Under the pieces are notes generated by a model. That model was not told where the DNA came from and searched no databases. It saw nothing but the letters and a program-made list of their open reading frames with translations. DNA of 64,000 nt from a virus, in the UHGV virus genome UHGV-0084588. One strand, 5' to 3'. A program made the position numbers and the translations under genes. The number at the start of each line of letters is the position of its first letter. Position 1 is the stretch's first letter. Shown here one piece after another: positions 21,856-63,078 of the stretch.

Positions 21856-21890
21856 TACCCTACTCCCGTTAAGGAGTAGGGTACTTTTTA
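21856..21890. terminator. bidirectional terminator between convergent genes
   Basis: TACCCTACTCC-cgttaa-GGAGTAGGGTA hairpin flanked by A/T-rich runs, between the plus gene ending at 21772 and the minus gene ending at 21888. Confidence 0.7.
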
Positions 21891-22370
21891 TTGTTCCGCA
21901 GGATGGAGCATTGTTCCAGTGTCAGGCGCTACACCTTCTATACAGCGGAAGAAAGTAATGCCTTTACCATCGCCCGTTTTATATTCTAAAGTAGAATACG
22001 CAAATGTTGGTGTTTTTGAAAGCAAACCATTTACACGGTAGTAACGTTGTCCCGTGATAGGATCAATATTCCCATTAACTTTACCTAATAAATCTTTATA
22101 AAGTTGGGGCGACTCAATCTTACCATTTGGCCAAGTGGCTACCCAATTAGCACCAGTATCGACTACGGTTACTGAGCCTAACATTAGATTAGTCGAGCTG
22201 ACGACAGGTTTGTAATTTGCAAAATCTTGCTCTACACCCATGCAGGTGTAAATAACCATGTCGTGTGGCTCCACCGGCACAGTCGAGAATTGGCCGTTAC
22301 CATTTGGTTGTAAGGCACATCCTGCTAATGAAAAAACACCAAGCATAACGATAAGAAAACGCTTTATCAT
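21888..22370 (-). CDS. lipoprotein
   Basis: Start taken at the ATG at 22370 (AAGGTG RBS); MIKRFLIVMLGVFSLAGC carries a lipobox before the Cys; convergent with the lysis-like block. Confidence 0.6.
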   Translation of the reverse strand: MIKRFLIVMLGVFSLAGCALQPNGNGQFSTVPVEPHDMVIYTCMGVEQDFANYKPVVSSTNLMLGSVTVVDTGANWVATWPNGKIESPQLYKDLLGKVNGNIDPITGQRYYRVNGLLSKTPTFAYSTLEYKTGDGKGITFFRCIEGVAPDTGTMLHPAEQ

Positions 22371-22433
22371 ACTTTTCACCTTTTTTATAAAAAGTTAAAA
22401 AAAATATTTTTACAGACAACCCTTACTGCCGAC

Positions 22434-22463
22434 TGTCATAACAATTAACACCACTTCTATAAT
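22434..22463 (+). promoter_or_regulatory. possible sigma70-type promoter (perfect -10)
   Basis: TATAAT at 22458..22463 about 47 nt upstream of the ATG at 22511; the -35 region matches poorly. Confidence 0.3.
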
Positions 22464-22510
22464 CCGAACAATACTATGCAATCCACCCTGCCAACCACGA
22501 GGTAAATACG

Positions 22511-23041
22511 ATGGCTAAAACCTTCCAACAGCAACTTATTGACGCTGTTAATACCAAAAACAGTACCCTGGACCCCGCACTCACCGTAGCTGATGTTGAC
22601 TTTGGTGCTGTTGCTGAGTTCACCGGAGAAGCTGGCCGCAACACTAAAATTACCCTGACCGCCAAGGAAGAAAGCCAGCACTTCAAGGGCGAGAAAGAAT
22701 TCCACTATACTCGTCTTTCATGCGACATCGTTGGTGAAGTTGAAGTAACTGCACCTGCTACCGATTTCGATTCAGCAGCGAAAATCCTGGCGAAAGTTAA
22801 CGCAGCCATGGCTGAGAAAGGGTACACCGATGACGAGTTCGGTGAAAACGACCTGCAAAGTATTTCTCGTGAAGAAGAAGGCAAAACCATTTACGTAGTA
22901 ACTGTTGTGGCCGGACACCTGAAGTTCCTGCCAGGCACTGTTGCAACGTATAAAGTTACTCCTCCGGCTCCTGAGAAAGTAGCACTGGACGGTCTGGAAG
23001 GTGAACTGGATAGCTTCACTGCACCGCTTCCTAAAGAGTAA
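22511..23041 (+). CDS. paralog-family protein (family A-related)
   Basis: 176 aa; paralog of 23107..23637 and of the 18506/19368/3448/10163 family. Confidence 0.6.
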   Translation: MAKTFQQQLIDAVNTKNSTLDPALTVADVDFGAVAEFTGEAGRNTKITLTAKEESQHFKGEKEFHYTRLSCDIVGEVEVTAPATDFDSAAKILAKVNAAMAEKGYTDDEFGENDLQSISREEEGKTIYVVTVVAGHLKFLPGTVATYKVTPPAPEKVALDGLEGELDSFTAPLPKE

Positions 23042-23046
23042 TTGAA

Positions 23047-23080
23047 CCGGGGGGGGGGTAACCTCCCCCGATATTTCTTT
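23047..23080 (+). terminator. hairpin terminator containing a G10 homopolymer
   Basis: CCGGGGGGGGGG-taa-CCTCCCCCG followed by a T-rich stretch. Confidence 0.5.
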
Positions 23081-23106
23081 AACCCGCATTTTAAGGATTT
23101 AAGATA

Positions 23107-23637
23107 ATGGCCGCTACTAACCAGATGATGTTGGTCGCGCTTTATAATGCTGCTAACACTGAGCTACCACATCAGATTACTGATAAAGAAGTGTCCTTTG
23201 GTCTCCCTACTGCGCTGGAAGGCAAAAGTAAGAATACCAAAGTTACCATGACTGCACTACCGGGTTCTGAGAATTTCAAAGGCGCAATCGAGCTGCATTA
23301 CGATCGTCTGGAGCCGGGTGTTGTAGGACGTATTGAACTAACTGACGATTTGTCTCGTTGGGAAGATCAAAACGAATTGCGCGCATGGTTACAATATTAC
23401 ATCAACAAAGTAAAACCTGACGACGCTATCGCACCTGGTGACGTTGTGTACAGCACCGAAGACCAGAAAGACGAACATGATAACGTCACACTGCGTACGG
23501 TAACGTGCACCGTTACTGAAAAGAACCTCCGTTATAAACCGGGTGTAATGGCAACTTTCGTAATTACGCCGAAAGTTGTTGACAATCGTATTGACCTGGC
23601 CACTACCAACGGCGAGCTGGACGGCTTTACGTCCTAA
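23107..23637 (+). CDS. paralog-family protein (family A-related)
   Basis: 176 aa; TAAGGATTTAAGATAATG context. Confidence 0.6.
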   Translation: MAATNQMMLVALYNAANTELPHQITDKEVSFGLPTALEGKSKNTKVTMTALPGSENFKGAIELHYDRLEPGVVGRIELTDDLSRWEDQNELRAWLQYYINKVKPDDAIAPGDVVYSTEDQKDEHDNVTLRTVTCTVTEKNLRYKPGVMATFVITPKVVDNRIDLATTNGELDGFTS

Positions 23638-23639
23638 GA

Positions 23640-23692
23640 AAAATAAAAAAATACCTACCTCCCGTAATAGGAGGTAGGTATATCTTTTTTTC
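23640..23692. terminator. bidirectional terminator
   Basis: A-run, then ATACCTACCTCC-cgtaata-GGAGGTAGGTAT, then T-run, between convergent genes. Confidence 0.8.
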
Positions 23693-23700
23693 ACTGTCGA

Positions 23701-24372
23701 TTACAGCCCTTGCTCTAACGCAAACGCTTTTATCGAATCGTAATCACGCGCCTCAGCCCAAGCCCTGACTTCTTTTTTCTGCTCAGACATTGCGTGGTGT
23801 AGTCTTTGATCACGCGCAACGATTGCTGCCATCAGCGCTTTGCACTGCTCTAACGAAAAAGGTTCGATGCGGGTGTTAGCCGTGTCCAACCAATAACTCG
23901 GTGCTGTTTCAGACTGGATATACTGGCCCAACATTTGACGAGACGTTTCGTCCGCTTGGAAGTAGCGACCATCGACTTCAATATATCCGTGGCGCTGATC
24001 TTCATAACGGTGTTCCATCTCCAACATGATTTTCTGGATATCGAGATAGATGTAACGCGCCGTCGAACGCATATTCGTTCGAATCTCTTCCAGGTTAATC
24101 TCCAGAACGTCAGTAATGAATTCTTTTGCTTTGTTCAGTGTAAACTTCGACTCGATAGGAGACATTTCGTAAGTTTTCATCTGGGCTAAAGCTTCTTCAT
24201 CACTCATCCCTTCAATCAACTTGTAGTGCAGTAATGCACAGAACCCCGTACGTCCACGGTCTTCGTTACCTACACGTTCCATGTAGTTACCATGGCGGTC
24301 AATTGGTAGATCGTGCGCGAAATAACGTGCGCGAATCTCTTCTTTCGTTAAGCTTTTGTTAGAAGCAGACAT
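23701..24372 (-). CDS. hypothetical protein (last gene of the radical SAM block)
   Basis: 223-aa ORF overlapping the upstream gene by about 25 nt. Confidence 0.55.
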   Translation of the reverse strand: MSASNKSLTKEEIRARYFAHDLPIDRHGNYMERVGNEDRGRTGFCALLHYKLIEGMSDEEALAQMKTYEMSPIESKFTLNKAKEFITDVLEINLEEIRTNMRSTARYIYLDIQKIMLEMEHRYEDQRHGYIEVDGRYFQADETSRQMLGQYIQSETAPSYWLDTANTRIEPFSLEQCKALMAAIVARDQRLHHAMSEQKKEVRAWAEARDYDSIKAFALEQGL

Positions 24373-24914
24373 TCTTCTTCTCCAACCATACCTAATTCTT
24401 GCAGCAAGCCAAAATCAATCAACTGGAAGGTTTCAGAGAGATCGTTTGACCACACCACGTTTGCAATGTCGCGTTCTTCATCGGATAATTGCGGTAACAC
24501 ATTTTCGTTGAACGTCTGATGCTCTACGTAATAAGCATCGTAGATAGACGTAGAACGCAAGCAACGGATTGGCAGTCTTGGGAAAGACACCGCTAATGCA
24601 GCAATAGATGCGCTGCTCGGATTCTCCGCAGAATAGCGAAGCAATTCGATTTTGTGGCGCGGATAGTCCAGTACGCGTTGCTCGAAACCCGGATTACGTT
24701 TTTCGATTTCAACAACGGACTCATGACCTGTTTCTGTACAGTAAACGGGAATCATCACGTTTAGCCCGTACTTAATTAACAGAGGTTTAATCTCATCTGT
24801 AAAGTCTTCGCCAGGGATAATGGCGTGAACGTTATAGAGTTTATGTTTGCGCAGAAAACGCTCAACCAGATGGAGTTTACGCTTCGTAAAATTGTGGATC
24901 AGAATTGATTTCAT
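24348..24914 (-). CDS. hypothetical protein
   Basis: Start taken at the internal ATG at 24914 (GAGG about 9 nt upstream); overlaps the 3' end of the radical SAM gene. Confidence 0.45.
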   Translation of the reverse strand: MKSILIHNFTKRKLHLVERFLRKHKLYNVHAIIPGEDFTDEIKPLLIKYGLNVMIPVYCTETGHESVVEIEKRNPGFEQRVLDYPRHKIELLRYSAENPSSASIAALAVSFPRLPIRCLRSTSIYDAYYVEHQTFNENVLPQLSDEERDIANVVWSNDLSETFQLIDFGLLQELGMVGEEECLLLTKA

Positions 24915-26211
24915 TATTTGCCTCAGTAGGTTGTGCATTTAAAGCACGTTTAGCTTGCTCACGCTCACGCGTACATTTCGGACAGTAACAAACAGACGAA
25001 TCGTGCAGTGACGATGCGTGGACGGTACCCGTACGTTGACGCCAGTATTCTGCTGCCATCAGTTTTGCGGTCGTCCAGCCACATTGACGACGTTCAGCGT
25101 GGTACGCCTTACGGTCTTCCAGTGTCCCTTCACCGTTTTCGTAGGAAGCAGCTGCACAGCTGCCACAACCGTGTTTCATCGGACAGCCTAAGCACGTTTC
25201 AGGGTAGTTAGTATATTGCGTCTGAATCTCTTCCAGCAGCTTCCCGTCATCTAAACTAACGAACTCGCGACCAACTAATTCAAACACCGCAGAACGTGAC
25301 GTTACCGTTGACATAAAACGGTTACAACCGTATACCTTGCGGTCAAAACCTAAACAGGTCATGAACGTTAACGTACCACAGAACGGACGTAGGCGATCTG
25401 GGTTATAACGATGCGTGTCGTCATACAGCAGCTTATCGCGCCAATCTGGGTCCCAAATCTGACGGAAATCCAGACCTTCGGGAATGATATGTGACAACAC
25501 GTTACGTGGATTGGTGTGCAACCCTTTCTCAATCCAATAATCCATCACGTCGATCATCTGCAACGCAATATCCGTTGCCATGCTCCGTGGAAGAATATCT
25601 TCGTACGTAACGTTACCTGAAATCGTACCGCCACCGGCAACATCGATTAGCGATTTCATACTCGCTGCATAATGCGGTAACGTTTCGGTCGTAAAGGTTG
25701 CCTTGATACCCAGTTCAGCAATACCGACTTCTTTTAAGTAGTTATAGCCACGAACAGCGGCTTCGTAAGAACCTTGACGCGTCGTGGTAAAGATACGATA
25801 GCGGTCATGGACTTCTGGTAAACCGTCGATAGAAACACCGATGGAGAGTTTGTCTTTCCAACGCTCAACAATCTCACGGTTTAACGGGCGATCTAACAAC
25901 GTACCGTTAGTTGAGATACTGAACATATACGGGCGATTGTGCTCCTTACACAACTGTTCTGCGGTTTCGAACGCCGCTAACAGCAGTTTCGGTTGCATAA
26001 AAGGCTCACCGCCGATGATATCAATAATGACGTCGATGTTCGGAATATCTTTATCGCGCTCAAAACACGCGTGTAAGAAATCCACGATATCCGCCGCTTT
26101 GTTATTACGCGGATACTTACGTTCGTAACAATACTCACAGTCTAAGTTACAAGACAGATTCGTTACCACCTGGTAAGTACGTTGAGAACGTGGTGCTTCA
26201 TTATTGCTCAT
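24877..26211 (-). CDS. radical SAM enzyme with C-terminal SPASM-like Cys cluster
   Basis: CNLDCEYC (CxxxCxxC) at residues 21-28, GGEPF SAM-binding motif, and C-terminal CLGCPMKHGCGSC plus additional Cys, as in SPASM maturases. Confidence 0.75.
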   Translation of the reverse strand: MSNNEAPRSQRTYQVVTNLSCNLDCEYCYERKYPRNNKAADIVDFLHACFERDKDIPNIDVIIDIIGGEPFMQPKLLLAAFETAEQLCKEHNRPYMFSISTNGTLLDRPLNREIVERWKDKLSIGVSIDGLPEVHDRYRIFTTTRQGSYEAAVRGYNYLKEVGIAELGIKATFTTETLPHYAASMKSLIDVAGGGTISGNVTYEDILPRSMATDIALQMIDVMDYWIEKGLHTNPRNVLSHIIPEGLDFRQIWDPDWRDKLLYDDTHRYNPDRLRPFCGTLTFMTCLGFDRKVYGCNRFMSTVTSRSAVFELVGREFVSLDDGKLLEEIQTQYTNYPETCLGCPMKHGCGSCAAASYENGEGTLEDRKAYHAERRQCGWTTAKLMAAEYWRQRTGTVHASSLHDSSVCYCPKCTREREQAKRALNAQPTEANNEINSDPQFYEA

Positions 26212-27118
26212 CTTTGCTTATCCTTTTACGCTCTGCATAAATCACGCGTTTAATGTACTCGTAAGCACCTACTCCAATAGAGCAAGCGAGCTGATTGCAG
26301 CCACCGTTTAAGATAGCTGGGGCATTCTGAAGCTGATGTTCTGTTCCATCTGCGTTCAAATACAACTCTTCGCTACAAACATTACACTCGTTTTCGAAAA
26401 TCTTGCTGACAGACACGCCGCACGATTCTCCAGTTTGGACGTTCAACCGTTCCATATTCTCCTGAATTTTTAAATAGCCATAAACGAAGTTCATGACGTG
26501 ATCAGGAGACAATGGTTTTGGCATCTGCGCATCAAACATTAGAGAAAACGCACGGGGACGATAGTGGTACATCGCACGATGCAAATCCACAATATCTTCA
26601 TACCAGCGCTTATCCGCTAACTGGTCACGCGTAATCACAGCCCAGGTTTGGAAATTATCGAGTTCGTATAACGCTTCCAATGCTTCGTGGCTATCCTCTT
26701 CAATAAAGCGCATAAAAGGGCGCTCAGAACGCTTGTAGCCATCAATTGATACAAACACATGCTCAAAGTCTTTTAGCAGCGTAAGATGCGATTTACGCAG
26801 TTTTAAGCCGTTGGTATACAAGTGATGCTCAAGGTGCGGATGAGACACTTTCAATTCGTTAACGAAATCCTCAATCTTACGTTGGACGAGTAGCGGCTCG
26901 CCACCGGTCCAATGTATTTCCTTAATAGCCGGATTCTCTTGTAGTAATTCCAGGATACGTTCGCGTTGAAAAGCACGAGACGAATCTTCACGATTCATGT
27001 AGTAGGCTCCACCGCAGAAACTACAATCTAGGTTACACTTAGACGTCGTAACTACGGACAATATAGTGGGTTTATCGTACAACTTCGTCGAGATCCTGGA
27101 TTCCACATTGTCTATCAT
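26201..27118 (-). CDS. radical SAM enzyme (second, shorter)
   Basis: CNLDCSFC (CxxxCxxC) near the N-terminus, GGEPLL motif, and a C-terminal Cys cluster (CNVCSEE...GGCNQLACS); overlaps the downstream gene by 11 nt. Confidence 0.7.
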   Translation of the reverse strand: MIDNVESRISTKLYDKPTILSVVTTSKCNLDCSFCGGAYYMNREDSSRAFQRERILELLQENPAIKEIHWTGGEPLLVQRKIEDFVNELKVSHPHLEHHLYTNGLKLRKSHLTLLKDFEHVFVSIDGYKRSERPFMRFIEEDSHEALEALYELDNFQTWAVITRDQLADKRWYEDIVDLHRAMYHYRPRAFSLMFDAQMPKPLSPDHVMNFVYGYLKIQENMERLNVQTGESCGVSVSKIFENECNVCSEELYLNADGTEHQLQNAPAILNGGCNQLACSIGVGAYEYIKRVIYAERKRISKDEQ

Positions 27119-27138
27119 TGCAGGTTGCTCCAGTATTT

Positions 27139-28026: not shown

Positions 28027-28094
28027 TGATTACTCCAATTATTTCACGGTCAAACGGTCATTCAGGCTATAGAGTCTACCACTGGAGGGTTTAC

Positions 28095-44282: not shown

Positions 44283-45545
44283 GTGACTACTGCTTATCAA
44301 GTGCGGCCCGACAGCGCTTTTGGCTTCTCTCGAGAGTCCCGTACCTGGGGAGCCATCGATGTCACGCAACCCTTAACTACGTTGTGTTCAGACTACCACA
44401 CCTTTGAGATCGGTTTAAGTGCACTTGGTAAAGACTATACGTTAATCAGTCAATACCATCTTGCTGAACTACAAAACCGAACAGACACTTTACAAGATTG
44501 GTTAAATGAAAAGGCCGGAAACGTCATTCCCACTCTAAAAGCCGGATTGCCGAAACTGGAATTCAGTTGGGCACATTACCAATCAATTAATGCCGATGTA
44601 CCTGTCGAAACATATCTGTGTCCACCAGGGTACCACCACAGTCAAGATTTCAGCCTAGACGATGCTGATGACGTTGTCGTCGTTTGTGAGGACAAGTGGA
44701 AAGACAAATACCGTAATAGTGTGCTGTACAACATTAACGGTCAATGGGTACCGCACCAGACGGATACCGTAGGTGTGCGATTGCCTGGGGCCGGTAAAAT
44801 CGTACGGAGAGCATGTACGCCAGATATTGGCTGTATGGTTTTTGGTCAGCTAGGGAATGTTAAAACCTATCCAATCGCCAACCTTACGCTAAACAAGCTC
44901 GACACTACACGCGACTATTACTCCACGTTAATGATATCGCTGCCTGAGTCTATTACGGGGAAAACCGTGGGTTTCGTCATAGGCGGATTGTTACGTTGGT
45001 TGCCCCCGGACGGTTATTTCTCTGACCGTGCGATCATGATTTCTTTACCGAATTTTGATCTTGCACGGACCGTTCTGGAAACCCGCCGTTATTACGACTG
45101 GGATAGCATCGGTGTAGGGGATTTATCATCGCCTACCAACGTTCAACGTATTCGTAACCCTGAAACACTGAAGGCGCTTTTACTCCACGAATCCTCTTTT
45201 ATCTTTACGGTAGATAATCCGTATTTAGAAGAAGAAGTTGTGGGTGTTTCGCATAACGCCGTTTGGGGACGCTGTTACCTCAAGGACCCCAACGATCCTG
45301 ATTCTGAAAAACCATTAGGGTACTTAAATAATCGATTTGGTAAGACGGTAGGTTATTGGCCTACGTGGGAGGAAGGTGAGTGGGTATTTAACACTACCGA
45401 ATTCGACAGTCAAAACTACGTCTTTCGTGAAGCCCGGTGGTATAATCAGAAGAAGATTAACGATGCTCAAGCAATCGTTGGTCCATTCGGTCCCTGGGAA
45501 AAAGTGTATTTAGAAATGCATCGCTTTAAAGCACGAAAAAAATAA
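44283..45545 (+). CDS. hypothetical protein
   Basis: 420-aa ORF with GTG start (GAGGAAAAAGAG upstream); divergent from the tailspike block; followed by a strong terminator. Confidence 0.5.
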   Translation: MTTAYQVRPDSAFGFSRESRTWGAIDVTQPLTTLCSDYHTFEIGLSALGKDYTLISQYHLAELQNRTDTLQDWLNEKAGNVIPTLKAGLPKLEFSWAHYQSINADVPVETYLCPPGYHHSQDFSLDDADDVVVVCEDKWKDKYRNSVLYNINGQWVPHQTDTVGVRLPGAGKIVRRACTPDIGCMVFGQLGNVKTYPIANLTLNKLDTTRDYYSTLMISLPESITGKTVGFVIGGLLRWLPPDGYFSDRAIMISLPNFDLARTVLETRRYYDWDSIGVGDLSSPTNVQRIRNPETLKALLLHESSFIFTVDNPYLEEEVVGVSHNAVWGRCYLKDPNDPDSEKPLGYLNNRFGKTVGYWPTWEEGEWVFNTTEFDSQNYVFREARWYNQKKINDAQAIVGPFGPWEKVYLEMHRFKARKK

Positions 45546-45550: not shown

Positions 45551-45593
45551 CCTCCTACCCTCTAAGAGGGTAGGAGTAGCACGTTTTTTTTTT
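45551..45593 (+). terminator. rho-independent terminator
   Basis: CTCCTACCCTC-taag-AGGGTAGGAG hairpin followed by a T-run of about 11 nt. Confidence 0.8.
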
Positions 45594-45597: not shown

Positions 45598-45807
45598 TTA
45601 GTCTTTTTTGTAGACAATCGCGTTACCGTGCAGTTTGTTGTTGCCGGAAATACCGATAACTTTGAATGCGTCGCCGCCAATTTTTTCGGCTTCAGCAGCC
45701 AGTTTACCAGTTACATGATCAACGGTATCGCCGAAAGCGCTGACGTTACCGATTTTCTTAAACTCTTCTGGAATATGCTCAGCAGAAGAGAACTCTTTAA
45801 TAGACAT
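45598..45807 (-). CDS. DUF1471 (BhsA/McbA/YdgH-like) domain protein lacking a signal peptide
   Basis: Start at the ATG at 45807 (GGAGAG RBS); C-terminal ...GDAFKVIGISGNNKLHGNAIVYKKD parallels the BhsA C-terminus (...SFRITSVTGPNTLHGTAVIYK) as recalled. Confidence 0.55.
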   Translation of the reverse strand: MSIKEFSSAEHIPEEFKKIGNVSAFGDTVDHVTGKLAAEAEKIGGDAFKVIGISGNNKLHGNAIVYKKD

Positions 45808-46013
45808 AACAGCTCTCCATTTCAAAAGGTTAGTGGTCTAAGACCGACGTGTGTTACAACCGAAGCATAAGATAGCTCCTCCCCGTAGGGAGGAGTAGAG
45901 TGCGCGAAAAAAGTGGCCTGCTTAACTAAACGATGGGTTTAAGAAAAGTGTTGATAAAAAGTTTTACCAACGTCAGGTCACAATATATAAAAACAACGTA
46001 AGAAAAAGGGGAA

Positions 46014-47007: not shown

Positions 47008-47033
47008 TCAGATATATATTACTTAAGTGAATA
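47008..47033 (+). promoter_or_regulatory. conserved 26-bp promoter-like motif (copy 3) with downstream hairpin
   Basis: TCAGATATATATTACTTAAGTGAATA followed by an 11-bp stem (TAGGGACTGAA/TTCAGTCCCTA); unlike the other copies it lies about 390 nt upstream of the next ATG. Confidence 0.45.
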
Positions 47034-51357: not shown

Positions 51358-51383
51358 TCAGATATATATTACTTAGGTGAGAG
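51358..51383 (+). promoter_or_regulatory. conserved 26-bp promoter-like motif (copy 4) with downstream hairpin
   Basis: TCAGATATATATTACTTAGGTGAGAG followed by GAGTTA-tgat-TAACTC; 72 nt upstream of the ATG at 51430. Confidence 0.5.
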
Positions 51384-53670: not shown

Positions 53671-53700
53671 ACGACATGTTTTACCTAAAGGAGTATTAAA

Positions 53701-54177
53701 ATGCAATTATCTAACGTCTATCAAGCTGCGCAATTTCATCATGACCTGTCGGCTAAACCTGAACAAATTCGCCACAACTTAACGGTGGCCTGGAAACTGC
53801 TGCGCATCGCAGAAGCCGCACGCCTTAACGATCAGTCAACGATTATCGACACTGTGCGCACATTACATCCAGTTGACCTGGAAACAATCTGGACATTTGA
53901 TTTAACCCGAATTTATCATCGCCGTTTTAATGCGGCGGTTGACGCAATCCGGCCTTACTTTCACCACCTGCGGACAACACGCGAAAATGACACCGCGCTC
54001 GAATGGGTATTGGTACAAAGCGTATGGAGCGACTACATTTATCTCCTTTCTTTAGAGACGGGTGAATGTATCGTTGCTAACGAAGTTTTTTCAAGTAACG
54101 CAGAAATGTATCGTTCCTTCGCGACGATTAAAGGTGAAACACAGCCTATTTTATCACTCACGCACTTAGGGCTATAA
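53701..54177 (+). CDS. hypothetical protein
   Basis: 158-aa ORF preceded by the conserved TTTTACCTAAAGGAGTATTAAAATG context. Confidence 0.6.
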   Translation: MQLSNVYQAAQFHHDLSAKPEQIRHNLTVAWKLLRIAEAARLNDQSTIIDTVRTLHPVDLETIWTFDLTRIYHRRFNAAVDAIRPYFHHLRTTRENDTALEWVLVQSVWSDYIYLLSLETGECIVANEVFSSNAEMYRSFATIKGETQPILSLTHLGL

Positions 54178-54847: not shown

Positions 54848-54890
54848 GGGAGAACCTTCGGGTTCTCCCTTCTCTGTTTTTTTTTCTTTT
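54848..54890 (+). terminator. rho-independent terminator
   Basis: GGGAGAACC-ttcg-GGTTCTCCC followed by a long T-tract. Confidence 0.8.
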
Positions 54891-57595: not shown

Positions 57596-57606
57596 GAGAA
57601 GGGAAT

Positions 57607-57705: not shown

Positions 57706-57762
57706 ACGCCCAAATAATCCGGAAAATACCCTCCGGCGTGAGGGTATTACTAGGAGCAGAAA

Positions 57763-57891: not shown

Positions 57892-57922
57892 TTTTACTTT
57901 TTTGCGTCTCTAAGGTTTGCAA

Positions 57923-58366
57923 ATGGAAATTTATTTGTTGAACGCATCTTCTAAAGTCGGCGAACGACAAGCTGCCGATTTACTCAAACTACACTACCGT
58001 TACTTGGACCACCAGGCTACATTACTAAAAATCAAAACGTCGGTACCGAAATTAAAAGCTCGACAACTGATCGAAGGTAACTGCATAGTTCTGGTGTATC
58101 AGGATGATGTCGCGGTAGGATACTGTAGTTATCGGAATCGTAACGGTTCACTTAAGATACGTTCGGTATACGTGCTCCCAGACTATCGTCAGCGGGGTGT
58201 AATGAAAGAGATTTTCAAAGCAATTGCCGCCGATGAAGTTTTCGGTGAAATTGTTACTGGCATGTATGCGAAATGTAAAGAAGCAAAAGAGTATTTCATC
58301 CGACGCGGTTATCAGGCGGTTTACTCACACGATCGTGAGTGGGTCGATTTTAGCAAAACATTCTAA
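57923..58366 (+). CDS. GNAT-family acetyltransferase-like protein
   Basis: SVYVLPDYRQRGVMKEIFKAI resembles GNAT motif A (acetyl-CoA binding, Q/R-x-x-G-x-G/A); 148 aa from the ATG at 57923. Confidence 0.45.
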   Translation: MEIYLLNASSKVGERQAADLLKLHYRYLDHQATLLKIKTSVPKLKARQLIEGNCIVLVYQDDVAVGYCSYRNRNGSLKIRSVYVLPDYRQRGVMKEIFKAIAADEVFGEIVTGMYAKCKEAKEYFIRRGYQAVYSHDREWVDFSKTF

Positions 58367-58432
58367 AACAATAAAAGCTCTCTTGGCGTACCTCACTATG
58401 AGTGTGAGAAATTTACGTCAGGAGAGCTAATT

Positions 58433-58678
58433 ATGTTAAAATCGTACGGAGTGGGTGGTTTGGATACGAGTATTTGTTGGAAAGAATACGAACGTGCAAA
58501 AGCGTTCTTACAACATCCCAATGTAGGGACAATAGGTAAGGTCTGTTTCGGCAAACCTACGTTGACAGCTTGTATCCAAGGGGCTTTAGGAACGTTGCCA
58601 CCCGAAACACATTTCGAGCCTGAGGAGAATACGAATGTTCACAGAGAACCCATCAATTTACGGCATACCGTTGAATGA
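58433..58678 (+). CDS. hypothetical protein
   Basis: 81-aa ORF; GGAGAG RBS. Confidence 0.5.
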   Translation: MLKSYGVGGLDTSICWKEYERAKAFLQHPNVGTIGKVCFGKPTLTACIQGALGTLPPETHFEPEENTNVHREPINLRHTVE

Positions 58679-59003
58679 AATTGACATTCTACAAATTTGT
58701 TATCAGTGCGACGACTTTGGTAACACGCAGGTAACAGAGCTAGTTAAGCTTTTAGGTTACTTACCTGAAATCGAGCTACCTTTTGTTAAACCCAGCTTGG
58801 TTCGTCGTGCATCGTGTCGCGAAGCTTATTTGTTGTGGAAACACAATATTTCAGTAGAGAAGGTCTGGGACCGCATGAACGATCATCAGTTCCGTGAACA
58901 GGTTGTGCACACGCTCAATTTGGCACTGACTATGCAACGGCTGGGCTTACAACACGAAGGTTTAGAAGCGGCGGTCAAACAATGGATTACAAAAAATCGC
59001 TAA
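58635..59003 (+). CDS. hypothetical protein
   Basis: 122-aa ORF; GAGGAG RBS; overlaps the upstream gene. Confidence 0.55.
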   Translation: MFTENPSIYGIPLNEIDILQICYQCDDFGNTQVTELVKLLGYLPEIELPFVKPSLVRRASCREAYLLWKHNISVEKVWDRMNDHQFREQVVHTLNLALTMQRLGLQHEGLEAAVKQWITKNR

Positions 59004-59090
59004 TGGGTAAAACATATATCGCTATACTTGTCGAGCTATCAATCGGCGGTACACGTTTTAATACTACACATCAACTACGGCCGATTCGTT

Positions 59091-59588
59091 ATGTTAACGG
59101 TACGTAAAGAATCTGAAATTGGTAACGATCTTTTTAATGCGCCCGAAGACTATAAAGTCGTTACCATTAACTGTGTAGGAGCAATGGGTCGCGGTATTGC
59201 GCTGGCGTGCCGTGAACGCTACCCCAACCTTTATCAAGATTACCGTAAGCGGTGTCGCGAAGACGAAATTAAGATTGGAAGTGTTTACGTTTACCCTGAT
59301 GAAAAGTGCATCTTGCTCCCCACGAAAACACATTGGCGTTTAAAGTCCCAGGTTTCTTATGTTACTGCGGGCATTACCGCATTAGCAGATTGTATTGAAG
59401 AACTGGATACCAGCGTTGCTATCCCTCCACTGGGAATGGCAAATGGGTGGTTAGATTCCTGGGAAAGACAAGAAATCTTCTTGTGGCTTTACAAAAAACT
59501 TGAACCGAGGAGGCAACGCTACACGTTATACTTACCCGATAAGCTGTACCGAGAAGCAGAGTCATTAATTCCAAACTCTTTTAAATAG
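59091..59588 (+). CDS. macrodomain protein (TARG1/OARD1-like ADP-ribose hydrolase)
   Basis: From the ATG at 59091: GNDLFNAPEDYKVVTINCVGAMGRGIALACRERY...AIPPLGMANGWLDSWERQ parallels human TARG1 ([34 protein letters not shown]...SMPRIGCGLDRLQWENV) as recalled; no clear RBS, so the start is uncertain. Confidence 0.55.
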   Translation: MLTVRKESEIGNDLFNAPEDYKVVTINCVGAMGRGIALACRERYPNLYQDYRKRCREDEIKIGSVYVYPDEKCILLPTKTHWRLKSQVSYVTAGITALADCIEELDTSVAIPPLGMANGWLDSWERQEIFLWLYKKLEPRRQRYTLYLPDKLYREAESLIPNSFK

Positions 59589-59688
59589 ATATTATCATTA
59601 GGGCACACAACAAAGGAGTATTAGCTGTCCGCGCCGTCATTTCGTCTTACGGAATACGGAAATGTATAAATCCAACTGGAGAAACAAA

Positions 59689-60387
59689 ATGTTTCGTATC
59701 TTCTTTCTTTTACTGGTAACACTTTTCGCGTTTAACGCACAGGCGTCAACGTCAACGCCGCAAACTAAACATCAGCGTGAATTTACACAAATCCAACATC
59801 GGTTCGAAAAGGTCAGTCCGTTAATTGTGGAAATCTCACGAAAGCAAGGCGTTGATCCTAAGCTGATGATTACGCTGATTTATCGCGAATCGCGTTTTGA
59901 TCCCAAGGCTTACAACAAAAGCACACGAGCGCACAGCCTAGTACAGATGCTTCCAAGTACCAAGCGCAATCTGCTAAAGCTTTATGGAAAAGAATTAGGT
60001 CTTAGTCAGAACGCTGATTTGTATAATCCGCGTAACGCTGTTTTGCTGGCTACCGCGTATGTTAAACATCTTGAGAAGGGGTTAACCAAACGACTCAAAC
60101 GCAAGCCCACCATGGCTGAAGTTGCGTTAGCTTACCACTGGGGTGAAAGTGGCGCTCACACGCGAATCAAAAGCAAATCTCGAGCAGCACAACGAGAAAT
60201 GGCAGGCTTTATGAAAGACGCCGCGTTCTATAGCGCGAAAATCGATGTGCCTGTTGTTGTGGGCTCGGCCCCACGTCAGCTTGCGTTTGCGAAGAAAACA
60301 CCACGTCAGATTCAATTGGCGGAAGTTAGTAAAATTTGGGATACGATAAACACGAGTTTTCCAATCAATAGAGGAGTTACCCTTTGA
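59689..60387 (+). CDS. secreted lytic transglycosylase (SLT domain)
   Basis: Start at the ATG at 59689: signal peptide MFRIFFLLLVTLFAFNAQA, then ESRFDPKAYNKSTRAHSLVQMLPST matching the SLT catalytic motif (E-S...GLMQ-x-MP-x-T). Confidence 0.65.
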   Translation: MFRIFFLLLVTLFAFNAQASTSTPQTKHQREFTQIQHRFEKVSPLIVEISRKQGVDPKLMITLIYRESRFDPKAYNKSTRAHSLVQMLPSTKRNLLKLYGKELGLSQNADLYNPRNAVLLATAYVKHLEKGLTKRLKRKPTMAEVALAYHWGESGAHTRIKSKSRAAQREMAGFMKDAAFYSAKIDVPVVVGSAPRQLAFAKKTPRQIQLAEVSKIWDTINTSFPINRGVTL

Positions 60388-60893
60388 GCATCGTTGTAAC
60401 CGATTGGTATAAAGGCATTACAAAAGCCGCACAACTAACCGCGAAAGATATTTACGGTATCGTCCGAAGCAGCATCGAAGACGAGATTAAATCGGATGAA
60501 GAATTCGCAGAGAAACACGAATTTTACGATGCTTTACCTACAGCATTCGGTGATGACGAAGAAGAAGGTTTAGAGTTTGACTGGAATGTCAACCTTGCCT
60601 TGCTGTGGATTTGTGGTTTACGTCCAACGGTAAAAGAAACCGAAGAAGGGAAAGTCTTGCTTTGGAATTTTACCGGACAGTATAACCGTAGCCTAGTCTT
60701 TAAACAGGCGTATATGGACGCTACTGTAGAACTTCAGAAACTGCTACTTGGCGAAAACACATACTGCCAGCGTAGTTTTCTAACGATTCTGGAAAAACTT
60801 GTGTTAACACACAAAGTCTGGCGTAAAGAAGACGCCCCAGAGCACATGTTCATTTTAGAGTACGCTGTCATTCCAAATCAGCCGTTCTTCTAA
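60384..60893 (+). CDS. hypothetical acidic protein
   Basis: 169-aa ORF with TTG start (AGAGGAG upstream); overlaps the upstream stop. Confidence 0.45.
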   Translation: MSIVVTDWYKGITKAAQLTAKDIYGIVRSSIEDEIKSDEEFAEKHEFYDALPTAFGDDEEEGLEFDWNVNLALLWICGLRPTVKETEEGKVLLWNFTGQYNRSLVFKQAYMDATVELQKLLLGENTYCQRSFLTILEKLVLTHKVWRKEDAPEHMFILEYAVIPNQPFF

Positions 60894-60898
60894 TCTCT

Positions 60899-60937
60899 AC
60901 CCCTTACCCTTTACGGAGTAAGGGGTAATTTTATTTT
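60899..60937 (+). terminator. rho-independent terminator
   Basis: CCCCTTAC-cctttacgga-GTAAGGGG followed by TAATTTTATTTT. Confidence 0.7.
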
Positions 60938-60959
60938 CATTCCCTAAAGGAACAGAGAT

Positions 60960-61439
60960 ATGATAAAATTCATTTGGCGTTACCCAACACGTTTTTGGTT
61001 TGTGGTGCTTGAACTGTGTATGGTTCTTGTAGCGGTTACTTTTATCGATGCACCTGCCTCACAGTTGACCATTTTCTGTCTTTTCGTGGCAGTTCCTGTA
61101 TGGGTTATTGCGAAGGCTATTAAGTTCGCCATGGTGAGTTGGGCGAATTATACGTGTCCGTATAAACCTAGACAAATCATGAACTGGTTAATGTTTATTG
61201 AAGAACGTTTACCGGCGCAACGTAAATTACTGGGCTGGTCGTCAATGTTAGATATTGCGCTAGAAACCAATGCAAAGTTCCCCGGCGCGAAAAACCCGTA
61301 TTTGCTGTTGGCGGTAATTGTTGCGCAACAAAAACTGGTAGGCGATCGTTGGTTGCCAGAAGAAGCGAAAGCGTATATCCGTAAACATCCAAAAGCTTTT
61401 TACTCGGTAGGTCAATGGCGTAACTTACCACTATTTTAA
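60960..61439 (+). CDS. membrane protein
   Basis: 159 aa; two N-terminal hydrophobic helices (FWFVVLELCMVLVAVTFI; IFCLFVAVPVWVIAKAI). Confidence 0.6.
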   Translation: MIKFIWRYPTRFWFVVLELCMVLVAVTFIDAPASQLTIFCLFVAVPVWVIAKAIKFAMVSWANYTCPYKPRQIMNWLMFIEERLPAQRKLLGWSSMLDIALETNAKFPGAKNPYLLLAVIVAQQKLVGDRWLPEEAKAYIRKHPKAFYSVGQWRNLPLF

Positions 61440-61492
61440 CTTTTTACATAACCCTTAGTTGATTTGAACAAACCTAAAAGAGGACTATTAAA

Positions 61493-62425
61493 ATGACTTT
61501 TCCATCTGAAGTAATTTACGAACTGGCTAACACTCTACGTCGTCGTTATAGCTACCATATGCTGCAAACCAGCGTAGGTCCAACCGCTGCTTTTCTGCGT
61601 AACCATTTCCTAGGCAGCAATCAGTCTTCAATTACGCAGGAAACGATTTTCTCTATCGATCGTACCACCGATATTCTTCCGATTGACTGTGCAATTGCGG
61701 TTCAAAATGGGGATACGTTCAACTTCGCCATGGGAATGCGCCATACAACCGTTACTGTTGACCCAAGCGTGGGGATCGAACATTCTTTCATGCGTAATCC
61801 GTATCCACTGTCGGATAACTGGTTCGTTGTTGTAGAACAAGGCGTGAATAAGTACGAAGTTGTTGCGGCGCACGACGAATCTTTCTTTGGTTTGGGGGAG
61901 ATTTCACGTCCCCTGGAAATTGCTCTCGAACTTCGACAGGGTAATATCGGATTAAATGGGGGTGTTGTCTACTTCATCCTGAGCAACTGGGCGCATGTGA
62001 GCCACGTCCTGAGAAAAGCTGACGCAACGTTCCATGCAACAAAAGTAAGTTACTTCTCCGCTGAGAATAAAGTTCAAGACGAAGAAGAAACAGTACCTGG
62101 CACAGAAGTCGCCGTTTGTGAAAACTACGACGATCTGAAATCTGTACTCGTTAAGCGTGATGTTTTCGAATCGTTAAACCTGGATTTCCCTGGTGACGAA
62201 AATGAAATATCCGTAGCTGATCTGGTAGAAGCATTGTGTCAGAAAGACCAAGCTAACGAAATTAGCGACGAAGAAGCGGAACTCTTCCAAGTTCAACAAC
62301 TCGTCAGCAAGGTTATCGGTGGCCAGGAAATCGTTGACACCCTTATGGCTTTACCGCCGAAGAAACGTACTCAAAAGTACATTCGTGAACTGGTTCTTGA
62401 CAAGCTGGGCCAAACCAAAAAATAA
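61493..62425 (+). CDS. hypothetical protein (paralog of 62487..63035)
   Basis: 310 aa; N-terminal FPSEVIYELANTLRRR...FLRNHFLG parallels the next gene; acidic C-terminal tail. Confidence 0.6.
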   Translation: MTFPSEVIYELANTLRRRYSYHMLQTSVGPTAAFLRNHFLGSNQSSITQETIFSIDRTTDILPIDCAIAVQNGDTFNFAMGMRHTTVTVDPSVGIEHSFMRNPYPLSDNWFVVVEQGVNKYEVVAAHDESFFGLGEISRPLEIALELRQGNIGLNGGVVYFILSNWAHVSHVLRKADATFHATKVSYFSAENKVQDEEETVPGTEVAVCENYDDLKSVLVKRDVFESLNLDFPGDENEISVADLVEALCQKDQANEISDEEAELFQVQQLVSKVIGGQEIVDTLMALPPKKRTQKYIRELVLDKLGQTKK

Positions 62426-62431
62426 TCTAAG

Positions 62432-62468
62432 ACCCCTACTCCTCCGGGAGTAGGGTTAATTCTTTTTC
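62432..62468 (+). terminator. rho-independent terminator
   Basis: CCCTACTC-ctccgg-GAGTAGGG followed by TTAATTCTTTTT. Confidence 0.8.
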
Positions 62469-62486
62469 CATCTTAGGAGTATTAAA

Positions 62487-63035
62487 ATGTTTCCATCGTC
62501 TGAATATTTAACTCATCTGGCTTACGGTATTCGCCGTGGTTCTGTTTTCCGCACACGTTTAAAGGATATAAATTTCCTGGCTAATTTCTTATATAACCAT
62601 TTTGGTGATGGAACTAACGTTTACAAAAAGATCACCTCAACACAACTTTATTCCCTTATAGCGGCGTCTGAAATCGTACCTACAGATATTTGGCGATTCA
62701 AACGTTATAACGGAGATATTACAATCAGTTTTCTTGATCATTCCCCTATTACCGTTGAAATCGCCGATCGTATTGACATTAATAGTGAAATGTCTGGTTG
62801 GAAGATTCTGTTTGATTGTGGCAATCGTTATGCGGTACTTGGCTCCTCTGATGAACGTGACTTCCCATTCGACAGGCCCTACTATTACCTTAGCGAAGAT
62901 GATTTCCCGGATAAAGAATCCAATATCTATTTAAACGGGGATACCGTTTACTTCATTTTTCGTACTTGGAACGACGTTGCTGCTATGATTGCTCAAGGCG
63001 TCATCGATTACCGTAAGCTAGAAGTCGACATTTAA
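62487..63035 (+). CDS. hypothetical protein (paralog of 61493..62425)
   Basis: 182 aa; TAGGAGTATTAAAATG context. Confidence 0.6.
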   Translation: MFPSSEYLTHLAYGIRRGSVFRTRLKDINFLANFLYNHFGDGTNVYKKITSTQLYSLIAASEIVPTDIWRFKRYNGDITISFLDHSPITVEIADRIDINSEMSGWKILFDCGNRYAVLGSSDERDFPFDRPYYYLSEDDFPDKESNIYLNGDTVYFIFRTWNDVAAMIAQGVIDYRKLEVDI

Positions 63036-63078
63036 AATAAAAGCTACCCTACTCCTTCTGGAGTAGGGTAATCTTTTT
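63036..63078. terminator. bidirectional terminator between convergent genes
   Basis: A-run, then TACCCTACTCC-ttct-GGAGTAGGGTA, then T-run; same stem sequence as the hairpin at 21856. Confidence 0.8.

What the first reader, a model, noticed from the sequence alone, without database searches (positions are those of the whole stretch)
21856..63078. Family of terminator hairpins sharing the stem TACCCTACTCC / GGAGTAGGGTA
The same stem sequence appears at 21856 and 63045 (both bidirectional, between convergent genes) and at 62434, with a related variant at 45551 (CTCCTACCCTC/AGGGTAGGAG). Repeated identical stems suggest a dispersed intergenic repeat family rather than independently evolved terminators.
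Basis: seen in the sequence. Interest (0 to 1): 0.35.

Follow-up and report, generated by a model that had tools for sequence, protein, structure and literature searches.

The report
Shared-stem bidirectional terminators of a jumbo phage
The repeated hairpins are real transcription terminators of a giant (SPN3US/phiEaH2-like) phage, built on a stem sequence that recurs across this phage group and sits at every point where genes converge; this matches what is already published for phiKZ-type phages, so it is a solid but modest finding.

Summary
Perfect hairpins TACCCTACTCC-loop-GGAGTAGGGTA lie at 21856-21883 and 63045-63070. A 9-bp version lies at 62434-62455 and a variant at 45552-45576.

The window is a jumbo phage syntenic with Erwinia phage phiEaH2. 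All four convergent gene junctions in the window carry such a hairpin, with the pyrimidine arm first and an A-tract and a T-tract on either side. They are bidirectional intrinsic terminators.

Stem sharing far exceeds a null that permutes the bases within each arm. The 9+9 stem occurs 82 times in IMG/VR, mostly in 220-250 kb phage contigs, but only at chance level in 596 Gb of bacterial genomes. In phiEaH2, 11 of 17 convergent junctions carry the near-identical stem (C)TACC[C/T]ACTCC.

Orthologous sites keep the stem while synonymous sites are close to saturation. Their loops change and are often exactly inverted. Similarity between different sites in one genome stops at the stem arms and the A/T-rich tracts beside them, with no target-site duplication, so I found no sign of a mobile element.

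The closest precedent is the conserved terminator motif of phiKZ and 201phi2-1, which also has a pyrimidine arm, a purine arm and a TTAT tail. I read this as a new member of that known kind. Why this particular sequence is kept remains unresolved.

The parts
21856..21883 (.). Bidirectional terminator hairpin TACCCTACTCC-cgttaa-GGAGTAGGGTA. It lies between the endolysin-like gene 21257..21772 (+) and gene 21888..22379 (-). The T-tract CTTTTTATTG follows it and overlaps the stop codon of the - strand gene. An A-rich tract lies upstream.
   Evidence: Predicted RNA fold -21.2 kcal/mol (+ strand) and -22.0 (- strand), z-scores -4.7 and -6.2. Gene context. Orthologous to phiEaH2 59500, ATTACCCACTCC.
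63045..63070 (.). Bidirectional terminator hairpin TACCCTACTCC-ttct-GGAGTAGGGTA. It fills the 41-nt gap between gene 62487..63035 (+) and gene 63077..63700 (-). Tails are ATCTTTTTAG on the + strand and GCTTTTATTTTA on the - strand.
   Evidence: Listed on both strands by the terminator scan. Fold -21.8 and -24.0 kcal/mol, z -5.0 and -6.2. Orthologous to phiEaH2 101485, CTACCTACTCC.
62434..62455 (+). Unidirectional terminator CCCTACTCC-tccg-GGAGTAGGG followed by TTAATTCTTTTT. It lies between gene 61493..62425 and gene 62487..63035, both on the + strand.
   Evidence: Fold -18.3 kcal/mol, z -3.3. The stem is unchanged in relatives, while the loop is TCCG in some and CGGA in others.
45552..45576 (.). 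Variant hairpin CTCCTACCCTC-taa-GAGGGTAGGAG at the convergent junction between gene 44283..45545 (+) and ORF 45598..45825 (-). The tail is canonical on the - strand (GTTACTTTATTTTTTT). On the + strand the T-run starts only 7 nt after the stem.
   Evidence: The terminator scan lists the - strand only. Fold -20.1 and -21.8 kcal/mol. Orthologous stems: phiEaH2 CTCCTACTCCC, SPN3US ACCCTACTCC.
23651..23681 (.). It lies between gene 23107..23637 (+) and gene 23701..24372 (-), with an A-tract upstream and a T-tract downstream.
   Evidence: Fold -20.1 and -24.7 kcal/mol, z -6.3 and -6.7. Orthologous to phiEaH2 61308, GACCTACTACC.
11304..11333 (+). Related terminator that uses the same words but with the purine arm first: AGGTAGTAGGGGC-ttaa-GCCCCTACTACCT followed by TTTCTTTTTTTT. 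The conserved AT-rich block TCAGATATATATTAC follows it.
3387..3414 (+). Terminator CCTACCGCCC-gattctat-GGGCGGTAGG followed by TGTTTTTATTTT. It shares the CCTAC/GTAGG word.
60904..60928 (+). Degenerate member TTACCCTTTAC-gga-GTAAGGGGTAA (with G-T pairs) followed by TTTTATTTTC. In a relative the same site holds a perfect hairpin CCCCTAATCC-aatc-GGATTAGGGG.

Best explanation
These are intrinsic (hairpin plus U-tract) transcription terminators of a jumbo phage that, like its relative phiEaH2, carries its own multisubunit RNA polymerases. The shared-stem hairpins are the phage's standard design for a bidirectional terminator.

The design is a perfect palindrome whose 5' arm lacks G and is pyrimidine-rich ((C)TACC[C/T]ACTCC), and whose 3' arm is purine-rich (GGAGT[A/G]GGTA). 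An A-tract lies on one side and a T-tract on the other. Both strands therefore produce the same hairpin, with the pyrimidine arm first, followed by a run of U. One such hairpin sits at every convergent gene junction in the window. The copy at 62434 is the same design used in one direction only.

My inference for why the sequence is kept so exactly:
(i) A two-way terminator cannot pass through a G-U intermediate, because that pair is an A-C mismatch on the other strand. Its stem is therefore nearly frozen.
(ii) Frequent strand switching or recombination between the two arms keeps them perfectly complementary. Inverted loops show that this happens.
(iii) There is a preference across the phage group for stems with the pyrimidine arm first, as in phiKZ. 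This may be tuned to the phage polymerases or to fast, unambiguous folding.

Shown here: the anatomy, the genomic positions, the non-random sharing, the distribution across the phage group, the conservation at orthologous sites and the loop inversions. Inferred: that termination actually occurs at these sites, and the reason for this particular sequence.
For: Anatomy and stability. Stems are perfect, 9-12 bp, with predicted folds of -18 to -25 kcal/mol and z-scores of -3.3 to -6.7 on both strands. T-rich tails follow them. They rank near the top of an independent terminator scan.

Position. They lie 4-83 nt from stop codons, and all 4 convergent junctions in the window carry one. In phiEaH2, 15 of 17 convergent junctions have a perfect hairpin and 11 of those carry an ACTCC/GGAGT-type stem. 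This count combines the hairpin census with the annotation.

Non-random sharing. In the window, 3 hairpin pairs share a 9-mer against 0.035 expected. In phiEaH2, 26 pairs share an 8-mer against 0.9 expected. No permutation out of 2000 reached either value.

Specific to this phage group. There are 82 copies of the 9+9 stem in 76 IMG/VR loci, and 54 of those loci encode phiEaH2 homologues. In 596 Gb of bacterial and archaeal genomes there are 70 single hits against about 52 expected by chance, none in a genome named as enterobacterial.

Conservation. The stems at the gp093-like and gp123-like sites are identical (22 of 22 nt) in relatives whose third codon positions are only 52-58% identical. 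Loops differ between the same genomes.

Loop inversion. In 9 of 16 orthologous pairs the loop is inverted, 6 of them exactly.

Precedent. 61 phiKZ terminators share 5'-BCCYCCCCHWWDGGGRRGGBYTTATKYYGT-3' (PMC10914365). The commonest of the five terminator motifs found in 201phi2-1 (59 sites) resembles it, and eight 201phi2-1 terminators (chosen to represent several of those motifs) stopped transcription strongly in vivo (PMC11512511). phiEaH2 encodes split RNA polymerase beta-type subunits.
Against: There are no 3'-end data for this phage or for any SPN3US-like phage in the searched literature.

At 45552 the + strand T-run starts 7 nt after the stem.

Freezing of the stem plus correction between the arms explains conservation at one site. 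It does not explain identity between different sites, nor the recurrence of the exact 9-mer in phages with only 20-30% amino-acid identity.

In those distant phages, longer hairpins built from the same words often lack a T-tract, so plain intrinsic termination may not be the whole story.

Whole intergenic regions are conserved far better than synonymous sites, so an unchanged stem is less exceptional than it first looks.
Confidence: 0.7

Rival explanations
1. Concerted evolution. Terminators within one genome are repeatedly homogenised by gene conversion or template switching between sites, so the identical stems reflect copying rather than selection for a sequence.
For: Each lineage has its own favourite variant. 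The window's group uses TACCCTACTCC 5-6 times per genome. phiEaH2 uses CTACCCACTCC and TACCCACTCC, ACCCTACTCC and TACCTACTCC, each 2-4 times. Window sites 21856 and 63045 are identical to each other, while their phiEaH2 orthologues differ from each other. Loop inversions show that strand switching at these hairpins is frequent.
Against: Different sites in one genome share the arms but not the loops, so no recent conversion tract covers a whole hairpin. Their T-rich tails sometimes recur too, but these are low-complexity and cannot show copying. An 11-bp arm is very short for recombination between distant sites. The exact 9-mer recurs in very distant phages.
Confidence: 0.15
2. A sequence-specific signal. 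The stem, as an RNA hairpin or as one strand before it folds, is recognised by a phage-encoded factor. Candidates are the phage's own RNA polymerases or an RNA-binding protein acting in termination, 3'-end protection or mRNA handling.
For: Conservation is at the sequence level, not only at the level of pairing. The motif is restricted to phages related to those that carry their own polymerases. [quoted passage not shown] Distant relatives have the same stems without T-tracts.
Against: Loop length (3-8 nt) and loop sequence vary freely and even invert. That argues against recognition of the loop and against a dimer binding a double-stranded DNA palindrome at fixed spacing. Many variant stems occupy orthologous sites. 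In 201phi2-1, eight terminators (chosen to represent several motifs) worked in the host alone.
Confidence: 0.15
3. A mobile or dispersed repeat: a miniature element (REP/RAYT-like or MITE-like), or a PeSL-like regulatory cassette, that has spread through the genome.
For: There are several identical copies per genome in intergenic DNA. In this window, terminator-plus-promoter composites do exist at 11304 and 51304.
Against: Homology ends at the arms and the A/T-rich tracts beside them. There are no target-site duplications and no shared unique flanks. The sites are orthologous across genera. The focal hairpins have no adjacent promoter block. Host genomes lack the sequence. Arm 8-mers occur almost only inside hairpins.
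Confidence: 0.06
4. Chance convergence. Terminator stems drawn from a narrow base composition (C-rich, no G) happen to coincide.
For: Most stems in the window and in phiEaH2 have one arm without G, which shrinks the space of possible sequences.
Against: Permuting the bases within each arm keeps the composition but gives 0.035 shared 9-mer pairs against 3 observed in the window, and 0.9 shared 8-mer pairs against 26 observed in phiEaH2. Bacterial genomes are at chance while these phages are enormously enriched.
Confidence: 0.02

Closest known systems
Conserved terminator motif of the phiKZ-type jumbo phages phiKZ and 201phi2-1 (Putzeys et al. 2024, PMC10914365; 201phi2-1 study, PMC11512511)
   Same: Dozens of terminators per genome share one stem motif. 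The 5' arm is pyrimidine-rich, the loop is short, the 3' arm is purine-rich, and the tail is T-rich and often TTAT. Both are giant phages with their own multisubunit RNA polymerases. Both include bidirectional cases between convergent genes.
   Different: The consensus sequence differs: CCYCCCC/GGGRRGG in phiKZ against (C)TACC[C/T]ACTCC/GGAGT[A/G]GGTA here. The focal hairpins do not match the phiKZ pattern even with 3 mismatches. Here the motif is tied mainly to convergent junctions. A second stem class, RGGAGACC-ttcg-GGTCTCCY, serves many one-way terminators. No transcript 3' ends have been mapped for this phage group.
PeSL cassettes (promoter-early stem-loop) of T4-like phages (PMC2839356, PMC4122927)
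   Same: Conserved intergenic stem-loops repeated around a large lytic phage genome.
   Different: PeSLs are composite terminator-promoter modules that flank variable genes and are proposed to mediate gene shuffling. The focal hairpins have no adjacent promoter block, sit at conserved orthologous junctions, and share only the stem.
DNA uptake sequences placed as inverted pairs in terminators of Neisseria and Haemophilus (Kingsford et al. 2007, PMC1852404)
   Same: Many terminators in one genome share the same stem sequence.
   Different: Uptake sequences are also strongly enriched as single copies throughout the genome. Here the arm 8-mers occur almost only inside hairpins.
REP elements and their RAYT transposases in enterobacteria (from my own knowledge)
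   Same: Short intergenic palindromes containing a GTAG/CTAC word, often downstream of genes.
   Different: REPs are imperfect, present in hundreds of copies, often clustered, have GTAG outside the stem, and belong to the host chromosome. This hairpin is at chance level in bacterial genomes, is perfect, and occurs singly.
Minute hairpin-loop inversions in chloroplast non-coding DNA (from my own knowledge)
   Same: The loop between short inverted repeats flips between close relatives while the arms stay intact. I see this in 9 of 16 orthologous pairs.
   Different: A different kind of genome. Here the hairpins are functional terminators, and a flip exchanges the loop sequences seen by the two transcription directions.

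Membership tests
Intrinsic (Rho-independent) terminator | A stable G+C-containing hairpin with a short loop | tested here: met
   Perfect 9-12 bp stems, loops of 3-7 nt, -18.3 to -24.7 kcal/mol, z -3.3 to -6.7.
Intrinsic (Rho-independent) terminator | A T-rich tract within about 0-2 nt of the 3' side of the stem | tested here: met
   Met for 62434 (+), 63045 (both strands) and 45552 (-) in the independent terminator scan, and for 21856 and 23651 (both strands) in my own census. Not met for 45552 on the + strand, where there is a 7-nt spacer.
Intrinsic (Rho-independent) terminator | Located just downstream of a stop codon, in intergenic DNA | tested here: met
   4-83 nt from the flanking stop codons.
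Intrinsic (Rho-independent) terminator | Transcript 3' ends map to the U-tract, or read-through is reduced | not testable with these tools
   No RNA data are available. No paper on SPN3US-like terminators was found.
Bidirectional terminator | A palindromic stem with an A-tract upstream and a T-tract downstream, between convergent genes | tested here: met
   Sites 21856, 23651, 45552 and 63045 occupy all four convergent junctions in the window. In phiEaH2, 15 of 17 convergent junctions have such a hairpin.
phiKZ-type conserved terminator motif | Many terminators in one genome share a stem motif | tested here: met
   About 16-19 of the 51 perfect terminator hairpins in phiEaH2, and 5-8 in this window.
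phiKZ-type conserved terminator motif | A pyrimidine-rich 5' arm and a purine-rich 3' arm | tested here: met
   The 5' arm lacks G in 6 of 8 bidirectional terminator readings in the window and in 16 of 26 in phiEaH2; each hairpin counts once per transcription direction (consensus).
phiKZ-type conserved terminator motif | A match to the published consensus BCCYCCCCHWWDGGGRRGG | tested here: not met
   With up to 3 mismatches only 35637 and 45878 match the stem and loop properly. Weak hits fall at 16343 and inside 23651. The hairpins at 21856, 45552, 62434 and 63045 do not match.
phiKZ-type conserved terminator motif | A TTAT element in the tail | tested here: inconclusive
   TTAT is present in 9 of 19 tails in the window and 28 of 64 in phiEaH2. 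By my rough estimate that is not clearly above what T-rich tails would give anyway.
PeSL (T4-like promoter-terminator cassette) | A stem-loop joined to a conserved promoter, with homology extending beyond the stem | tested here: not met
   No shared unique flanks, only A/T-rich tracts. The conserved AT-rich block TCAGATATATATTAC lies beside other terminators (11304, 51304), not the focal ones.
REP / RAYT or MITE-like mobile repeat | Copies with shared ends or target-site duplications, presence/absence polymorphism, and a linked transposase or copies in the host | tested here: not met
   Homology is limited to the arms and the tracts beside them. The sites are orthologous across genera. Bacterial genomes are at chance level. 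The window was not scanned for a transposase gene.
Uptake- or Chi-like DNA word embedded in terminators | The single word is enriched genome-wide outside hairpins | tested here: not met
   In phiEaH2, 12 of 14 copies of CCTACTCC and 8 of 8 copies of CCCTACTC lie in hairpins. In the window it is 6 of 7 and 6 of 6.
Known structured RNA family (Rfam), tRNA or tmRNA | A match at the family's gathering threshold | tested here: not met
   No Rfam match in the whole window. No tRNA or tmRNA.

The most novel reading that the evidence does not exclude
The conserved pyrimidine-then-purine stem may be more than a generic hairpin. It could be a sequence-specific 3'-end signal read by machinery shared among these giant phages: the phage's own multisubunit RNA polymerases, or an RNA-binding protein that ends, protects or routes phage mRNAs. 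That would explain three things: the exact 9-mer recurs in phages with only 20-30% protein identity, it sometimes occurs without a T-tract, and it is absent from bacteria.
Probability: 0.15. Interest if true: 0.7.

Novelty: new member of a known kind. Interest (0 to 1): 0.35.

Why it matters
It gives the enterobacterial jumbo phages (SPN3US, phiEaH2 and relatives) a defined terminator vocabulary. That helps delimit their transcription units and supplies compact two-way terminators for engineering.

It also extends the published phiKZ and 201phi2-1 observation to a distant branch of giant phages. This suggests that terminators with the pyrimidine arm first are a shared trait of phages that carry their own multisubunit RNA polymerases.

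The frequent exact inversion of loops shows that these hairpins are hotspots of strand switching between their own arms. That mechanism keeps the stems perfect and can swap which transcription direction sees which loop.

If the stem proves to be read in a sequence-specific way, it would point to an unknown termination or mRNA-handling factor.

Tried and rejected
- Origin from the host or a generic terminator stem. Scanning 596 Gb of bacterial and archaeal genomes gave 70 scattered single hits against about 52 expected. Rejected.
- Known RNA families, tRNA and tmRNA. None found.
- A literal search for the motif in the literature returned only primers and unrelated sequences. Searches for SPN3US terminators found nothing specific.
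- Membership of the phiKZ consensus. The focal stems do not match it.
- A longer repeat unit around the hairpins. The direct-repeat search found none that included them.
- Enrichment of the single arm, as for uptake or Chi-like words. None.
- My first home-made terminator predictor was far too permissive. I replaced it with counts of perfect stems.
- Fetching orthologous sites from many relatives with the search for related loci returned only 3-7 loci per query. A large covariation analysis per site was therefore not possible.
- TTAT enrichment in the tails is not convincing.
- I considered whether TAG/TAA triplets in the purine arm, or its resemblance to a Shine-Dalgarno sequence, explain the motif. 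Neither could be tested, so I make no claim.

Full report
**1. Observation**

The 11-mer TACCCTACTCC and its reverse complement form perfect hairpins at 21856-21883 (loop CGTTAA) and 63045-63070 (loop TTCT). With up to 1 mismatch there are 5 matches in the window against 0.66 expected, and no shuffle out of 100 reached 5.

At 62434-62455 the inner 9 bp are shared (CCCTACTCC-tccg-GGAGTAGGG). The variant lies at 45552-45576 (CTCCTACCCTC-taa-GAGGGTAGGAG).

A census of perfect hairpins found further relatives:
- 23651-23681, ATACCTACCTCC
- 11304-11333, with the purine arm first, GCCCCTACTACCT
- 3387-3414, CCTACCGCCC

An imperfect member lies at 60904-60928.

Predicted RNA folds on either strand are -18.3 to -24.7 kcal/mol, with z-scores of -3.3 to -6.7.

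Sharing is not explained by composition. Permuting the bases within each arm gives 0.035 hairpin pairs that share a 9-mer, against 3 observed, and 0 of 2000 permutations reached 3.

**2. What the window is**

The window matches SPN3US-like and Erwinia jumbo phages at 72-75% nucleotide identity over limited stretches. It has no close relative among deposited phage genomes.

Its ORFs are collinear with Erwinia phage phiEaH2 from about 58 to 102 kb (annotation). In phiEaH2 this stretch runs from the endolysin and tail assembly chaperone, through two radical SAM proteins, three very large virion proteins, a baseplate protein and an SbcC-like protein, to gp123. phiEaH2 carries several split RNA polymerase beta-type genes, as phiKZ-like phages do.

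The closest sequence is IMG/VR contig 3300029126_000001 (225 kb), with 98-99% amino-acid identity for two flanking proteins.

PHROG hits for the flanking genes are a tail assembly chaperone, an endolysin-like protein, a baseplate assembly protein and several families of unknown function.

**3. Position and anatomy**

The strand layout gives exactly four convergent junctions: 21772/21888, 23637/23701, 45545/45598 and 63035/63077. Each holds one of these hairpins. Each hairpin is a perfect palindrome whose 5' arm lacks G, with an A-rich tract upstream and a T-rich tract downstream. At 63045 the hairpin and its tracts fill the entire 41-nt gap between the two genes.

Because the stem is a perfect palindrome, both transcripts read pyrimidine arm, loop, purine arm, then U-tract.

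An independent consensus scan ranks 63045 (both strands), 45552 (- strand) and 62434 (+ strand) near the top of its terminator-like sites. Site 62434 is the same stem used in one direction between two + strand genes. One weakness: on the + strand at 45552 the T-run begins 7 nt after the stem.

**4. Beyond the window**

The exact 11+11 stem occurs 18 times in 9 IMG/VR contigs, up to 5 times in one 225-kb contig.

The 9+9 core occurs 82 times in 76 loci. Most are in contigs of 218-253 kb, among them contigs with exactly the lengths of SPN3US (240,413 bp) and phiEaH2 (243,050 bp). Of the 76 loci, 54 encode homologues of phiEaH2 ORFs. Identity ranges from over 80% down to 20-30%.

The same scan of 596 Gb of bacterial and archaeal genomes gave 70 hits. 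Each was in a different genome, the taxa were scattered, and none was in a genome named as enterobacterial. The chance expectation is 596e9 x 6 / 4^18, about 52. The stem is therefore specific to these phages and not borrowed from hosts.

**5. Whole-genome census of phiEaH2**

phiEaH2 has 51 perfect hairpins with a stem of at least 7 bp and a T or A tract. They fall into two stem vocabularies.

Class A is (C)TACC[C/T]ACTCC-loop-GGAGT[G/A]GGTA(G) and close variants, at about 16-19 sites. Class B is RGGAGACC-ttcg-GGTCTCCY, used for one-way terminators. The window has a class B example at 54848.

Combining the census with the annotation, 15 of 17 convergent junctions have a perfect hairpin, and 11 of those carry an ACTCC/GGAGT-type stem. 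Sharing of 8-mers among stems is 26 pairs against 0.9 expected.

The arm 8-mers occur almost only inside hairpins: 12 of 14 copies of CCTACTCC and 8 of 8 copies of CCCTACTC. This is not a DNA word scattered through the genome.

**6. Orthology and evolution**

Flanking-gene orthology pairs the sites as follows:

| Window site | Window stem | phiEaH2 site | phiEaH2 stem |
|---|---|---|---|
| 21856 | TACCCTACTCC | 59500 | ATTACCCACTCC |
| 23651 | ATACCTACCTCC | 61308 | GACCTACTACC |
| 45552 | CTCCTACCCTC | 82410 | CTCCTACTCCC |
| 62434 | CCCTACTCC | 100134 | CCCCTACC |
| 63045 | TACCCTACTCC | 101485 | CTACCTACTCC |

At the 45552 site SPN3US has ACCCTACTCC.

The sites are therefore old. Their changes are compensated on both arms and stay within the pyrimidine/purine pattern.

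In relatives whose third codon positions are only 52-58% identical to the window, the 22 stem bases at the gp093-like and gp123-like sites are unchanged, while the loops differ.

Two cautions apply. First, whole intergenic segments are also 90-95% conserved at this distance. Second, one one-way terminator (60904) did change its stem over the same distance, but that is a single comparison.

**7. Loop inversion**

Among 16 orthologous pairs with nearly identical flanks, 9 have the loop inverted, 6 of them as exact reverse complements. Examples are TTTTCG/CGAAAA, CGCAAA/TTTGCG, CGCAAG/CTTGCG and TCCG/CGGA. Only 4 pairs have the same loop.

The focal hairpin at 21856 differs from its closest relative in this way plus two substitutions. 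This shows frequent recombination or template switching between the two arms of one hairpin. Such a process would also keep the arms perfectly complementary.

**8. Comparison with what is known**

Putzeys et al. (PMC10914365) mapped 133 phiKZ terminators and found a conserved motif, 5'-BCCYCCCCHWWDGGGRRGGBYTTATKYYGT-3', in 61 of them. [quoted passage not shown]

The 201phi2-1 study (PMC11512511) found five terminator motifs, the commonest of which (59 sites) resembles the phiKZ motif. It identified 15 bidirectional termination sites. Eight terminators, chosen to represent several of the motifs, stopped transcription strongly in vivo in the host.

The present family has the same architecture: pyrimidine arm, short loop, purine arm, T-rich tail that is often TTTAT. 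Its consensus is different, and the focal stems fail the phiKZ pattern even with 3 mismatches. It is also tied mainly to convergent junctions.

Other candidates fail their defining features, as detailed in the membership table:
- PeSL cassettes of T4-like phages (PMC2839356, PMC4122927)
- REP/RAYT elements
- Uptake sequences in terminators (PMC1852404)
- MITE-like elements

No Rfam family, tRNA or tmRNA matches. I found no paper describing this motif.

**9. Interpretation**

Best supported, at about 0.7: these are intrinsic terminators, most of them bidirectional, that follow a stem design common to this phage group.

I can explain the exactness at a given site by two inferred effects. A two-way terminator cannot pass through a G-U intermediate, because that pair is an A-C mismatch on the other strand. 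Correction between the two arms, for which the inverted loops are evidence, then keeps the stem perfect.

Identity between different sites, and across very distant phages, is not explained by these effects. That includes hairpins of 13-17 bp such as CTACCCCTACTCC, which often lack a T-tract. Three possibilities remain open: concerted evolution between terminators, selection for a preferred stem with the pyrimidine arm first, or recognition by a phage factor.

The mobile-repeat reading is unlikely. Chance is excluded.

**10. Verdict**

It is a new member of a kind already described in phiKZ-type phages. Interest is moderate to low.

Noticed in passing
window 11354-11368, 15262-15276, 47008-47022, 51358-51372 (+ strand): There are four exact copies of TCAGATATATATTAC inside a longer conserved block, TTCAGATATATATTACYTAGGTGAGAG. 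Each lies upstream of a + strand gene, and two lie directly after terminator hairpins (11304, 51304). This is probably an AT-rich promoter for a phage polymerase and forms terminator-plus-promoter composites. With up to 3 mismatches there are 6 matches against 1.9 expected.
   Followed up: partly
Orthologous hairpins in L005/L011, L022/L027, L041/L053, L163/L164, L162/L164 and L164/window 62434; also window 21856 against L003: The loops of orthologous hairpins are exact reverse complements of each other while the stems and flanks are identical. This holds for 9 of 16 pairs, 6 of them exactly. Loop flipping by strand switching within the hairpin is frequent.
   Followed up: yes
window 54848-54869; phiEaH2 3689, 21271, 60733, 86801, 88883, 92249: There is a second terminator stem vocabulary, RGGAGACC-ttcg-GGTCTCCY with a UUCG loop. 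It is used for one-way terminators in gene arrays that run in one direction. Whether the two classes correspond to different polymerases or expression times was not tested.
   Followed up: no
L025, L027, L034, L041, L046, L051, L068 (IMG/VR contigs of 143-236 kb): More distant jumbo-phage contigs, with 20-30% amino-acid identity to phiEaH2, have perfect hairpins of 13-17 bp built from the same words. Examples are CCTACCCCTACTCCGG and CTCCTACTCCTACCCC. They lie right after stop codons and often lack a T-tract.
   Followed up: partly
window 6703-7619: There are six copies of a 38-nt unit, mostly spaced 120 nt apart, inside the 1500-aa ORF 4153..8655. This indicates a tandem 40-residue repeat in the protein.
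   Followed up: no
window 22511-23041 and 23107-23637: Two adjacent 176-aa ORFs both match phiEaH2 gp079, at 48% and 35% identity. This looks like a tandem gene duplication next to the hairpin at 23651.
   Followed up: no
window 21257-21772: An endolysin-like ORF (phrog_894) overlaps the tail chaperone gene by 23 nt and has no counterpart at this position in phiEaH2. The terminator at 21856 is therefore 83 nt from its stop codon.
   Followed up: no
window 13569-13594: A perfect 11-bp hairpin, CCCCTCTCAGG-aaat-CCTGAGAGGGG, has no T-tract. It ends directly at a GGAG 8 nt before the ATG of gene 13606..13980. It might control translation or be an RNA processing site.
   Followed up: no
window 17887-17913, 53680-53706, 62475-62492: Several genes share a near-identical translation start region, TTTACCTAAAGGAGTATTAAAATG.
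   Followed up: no
window 62397-62426: The best sigma-70-like match in the 44-64 kb stretch (TTGACA, 18-nt spacer, AATAAT; 11 of 12 positions) lies in the last codons of gene 61493..62425, directly upstream of the hairpin at 62434. It is probably chance, since 25 promoter-like sites were found against 35 expected.
   Followed up: no
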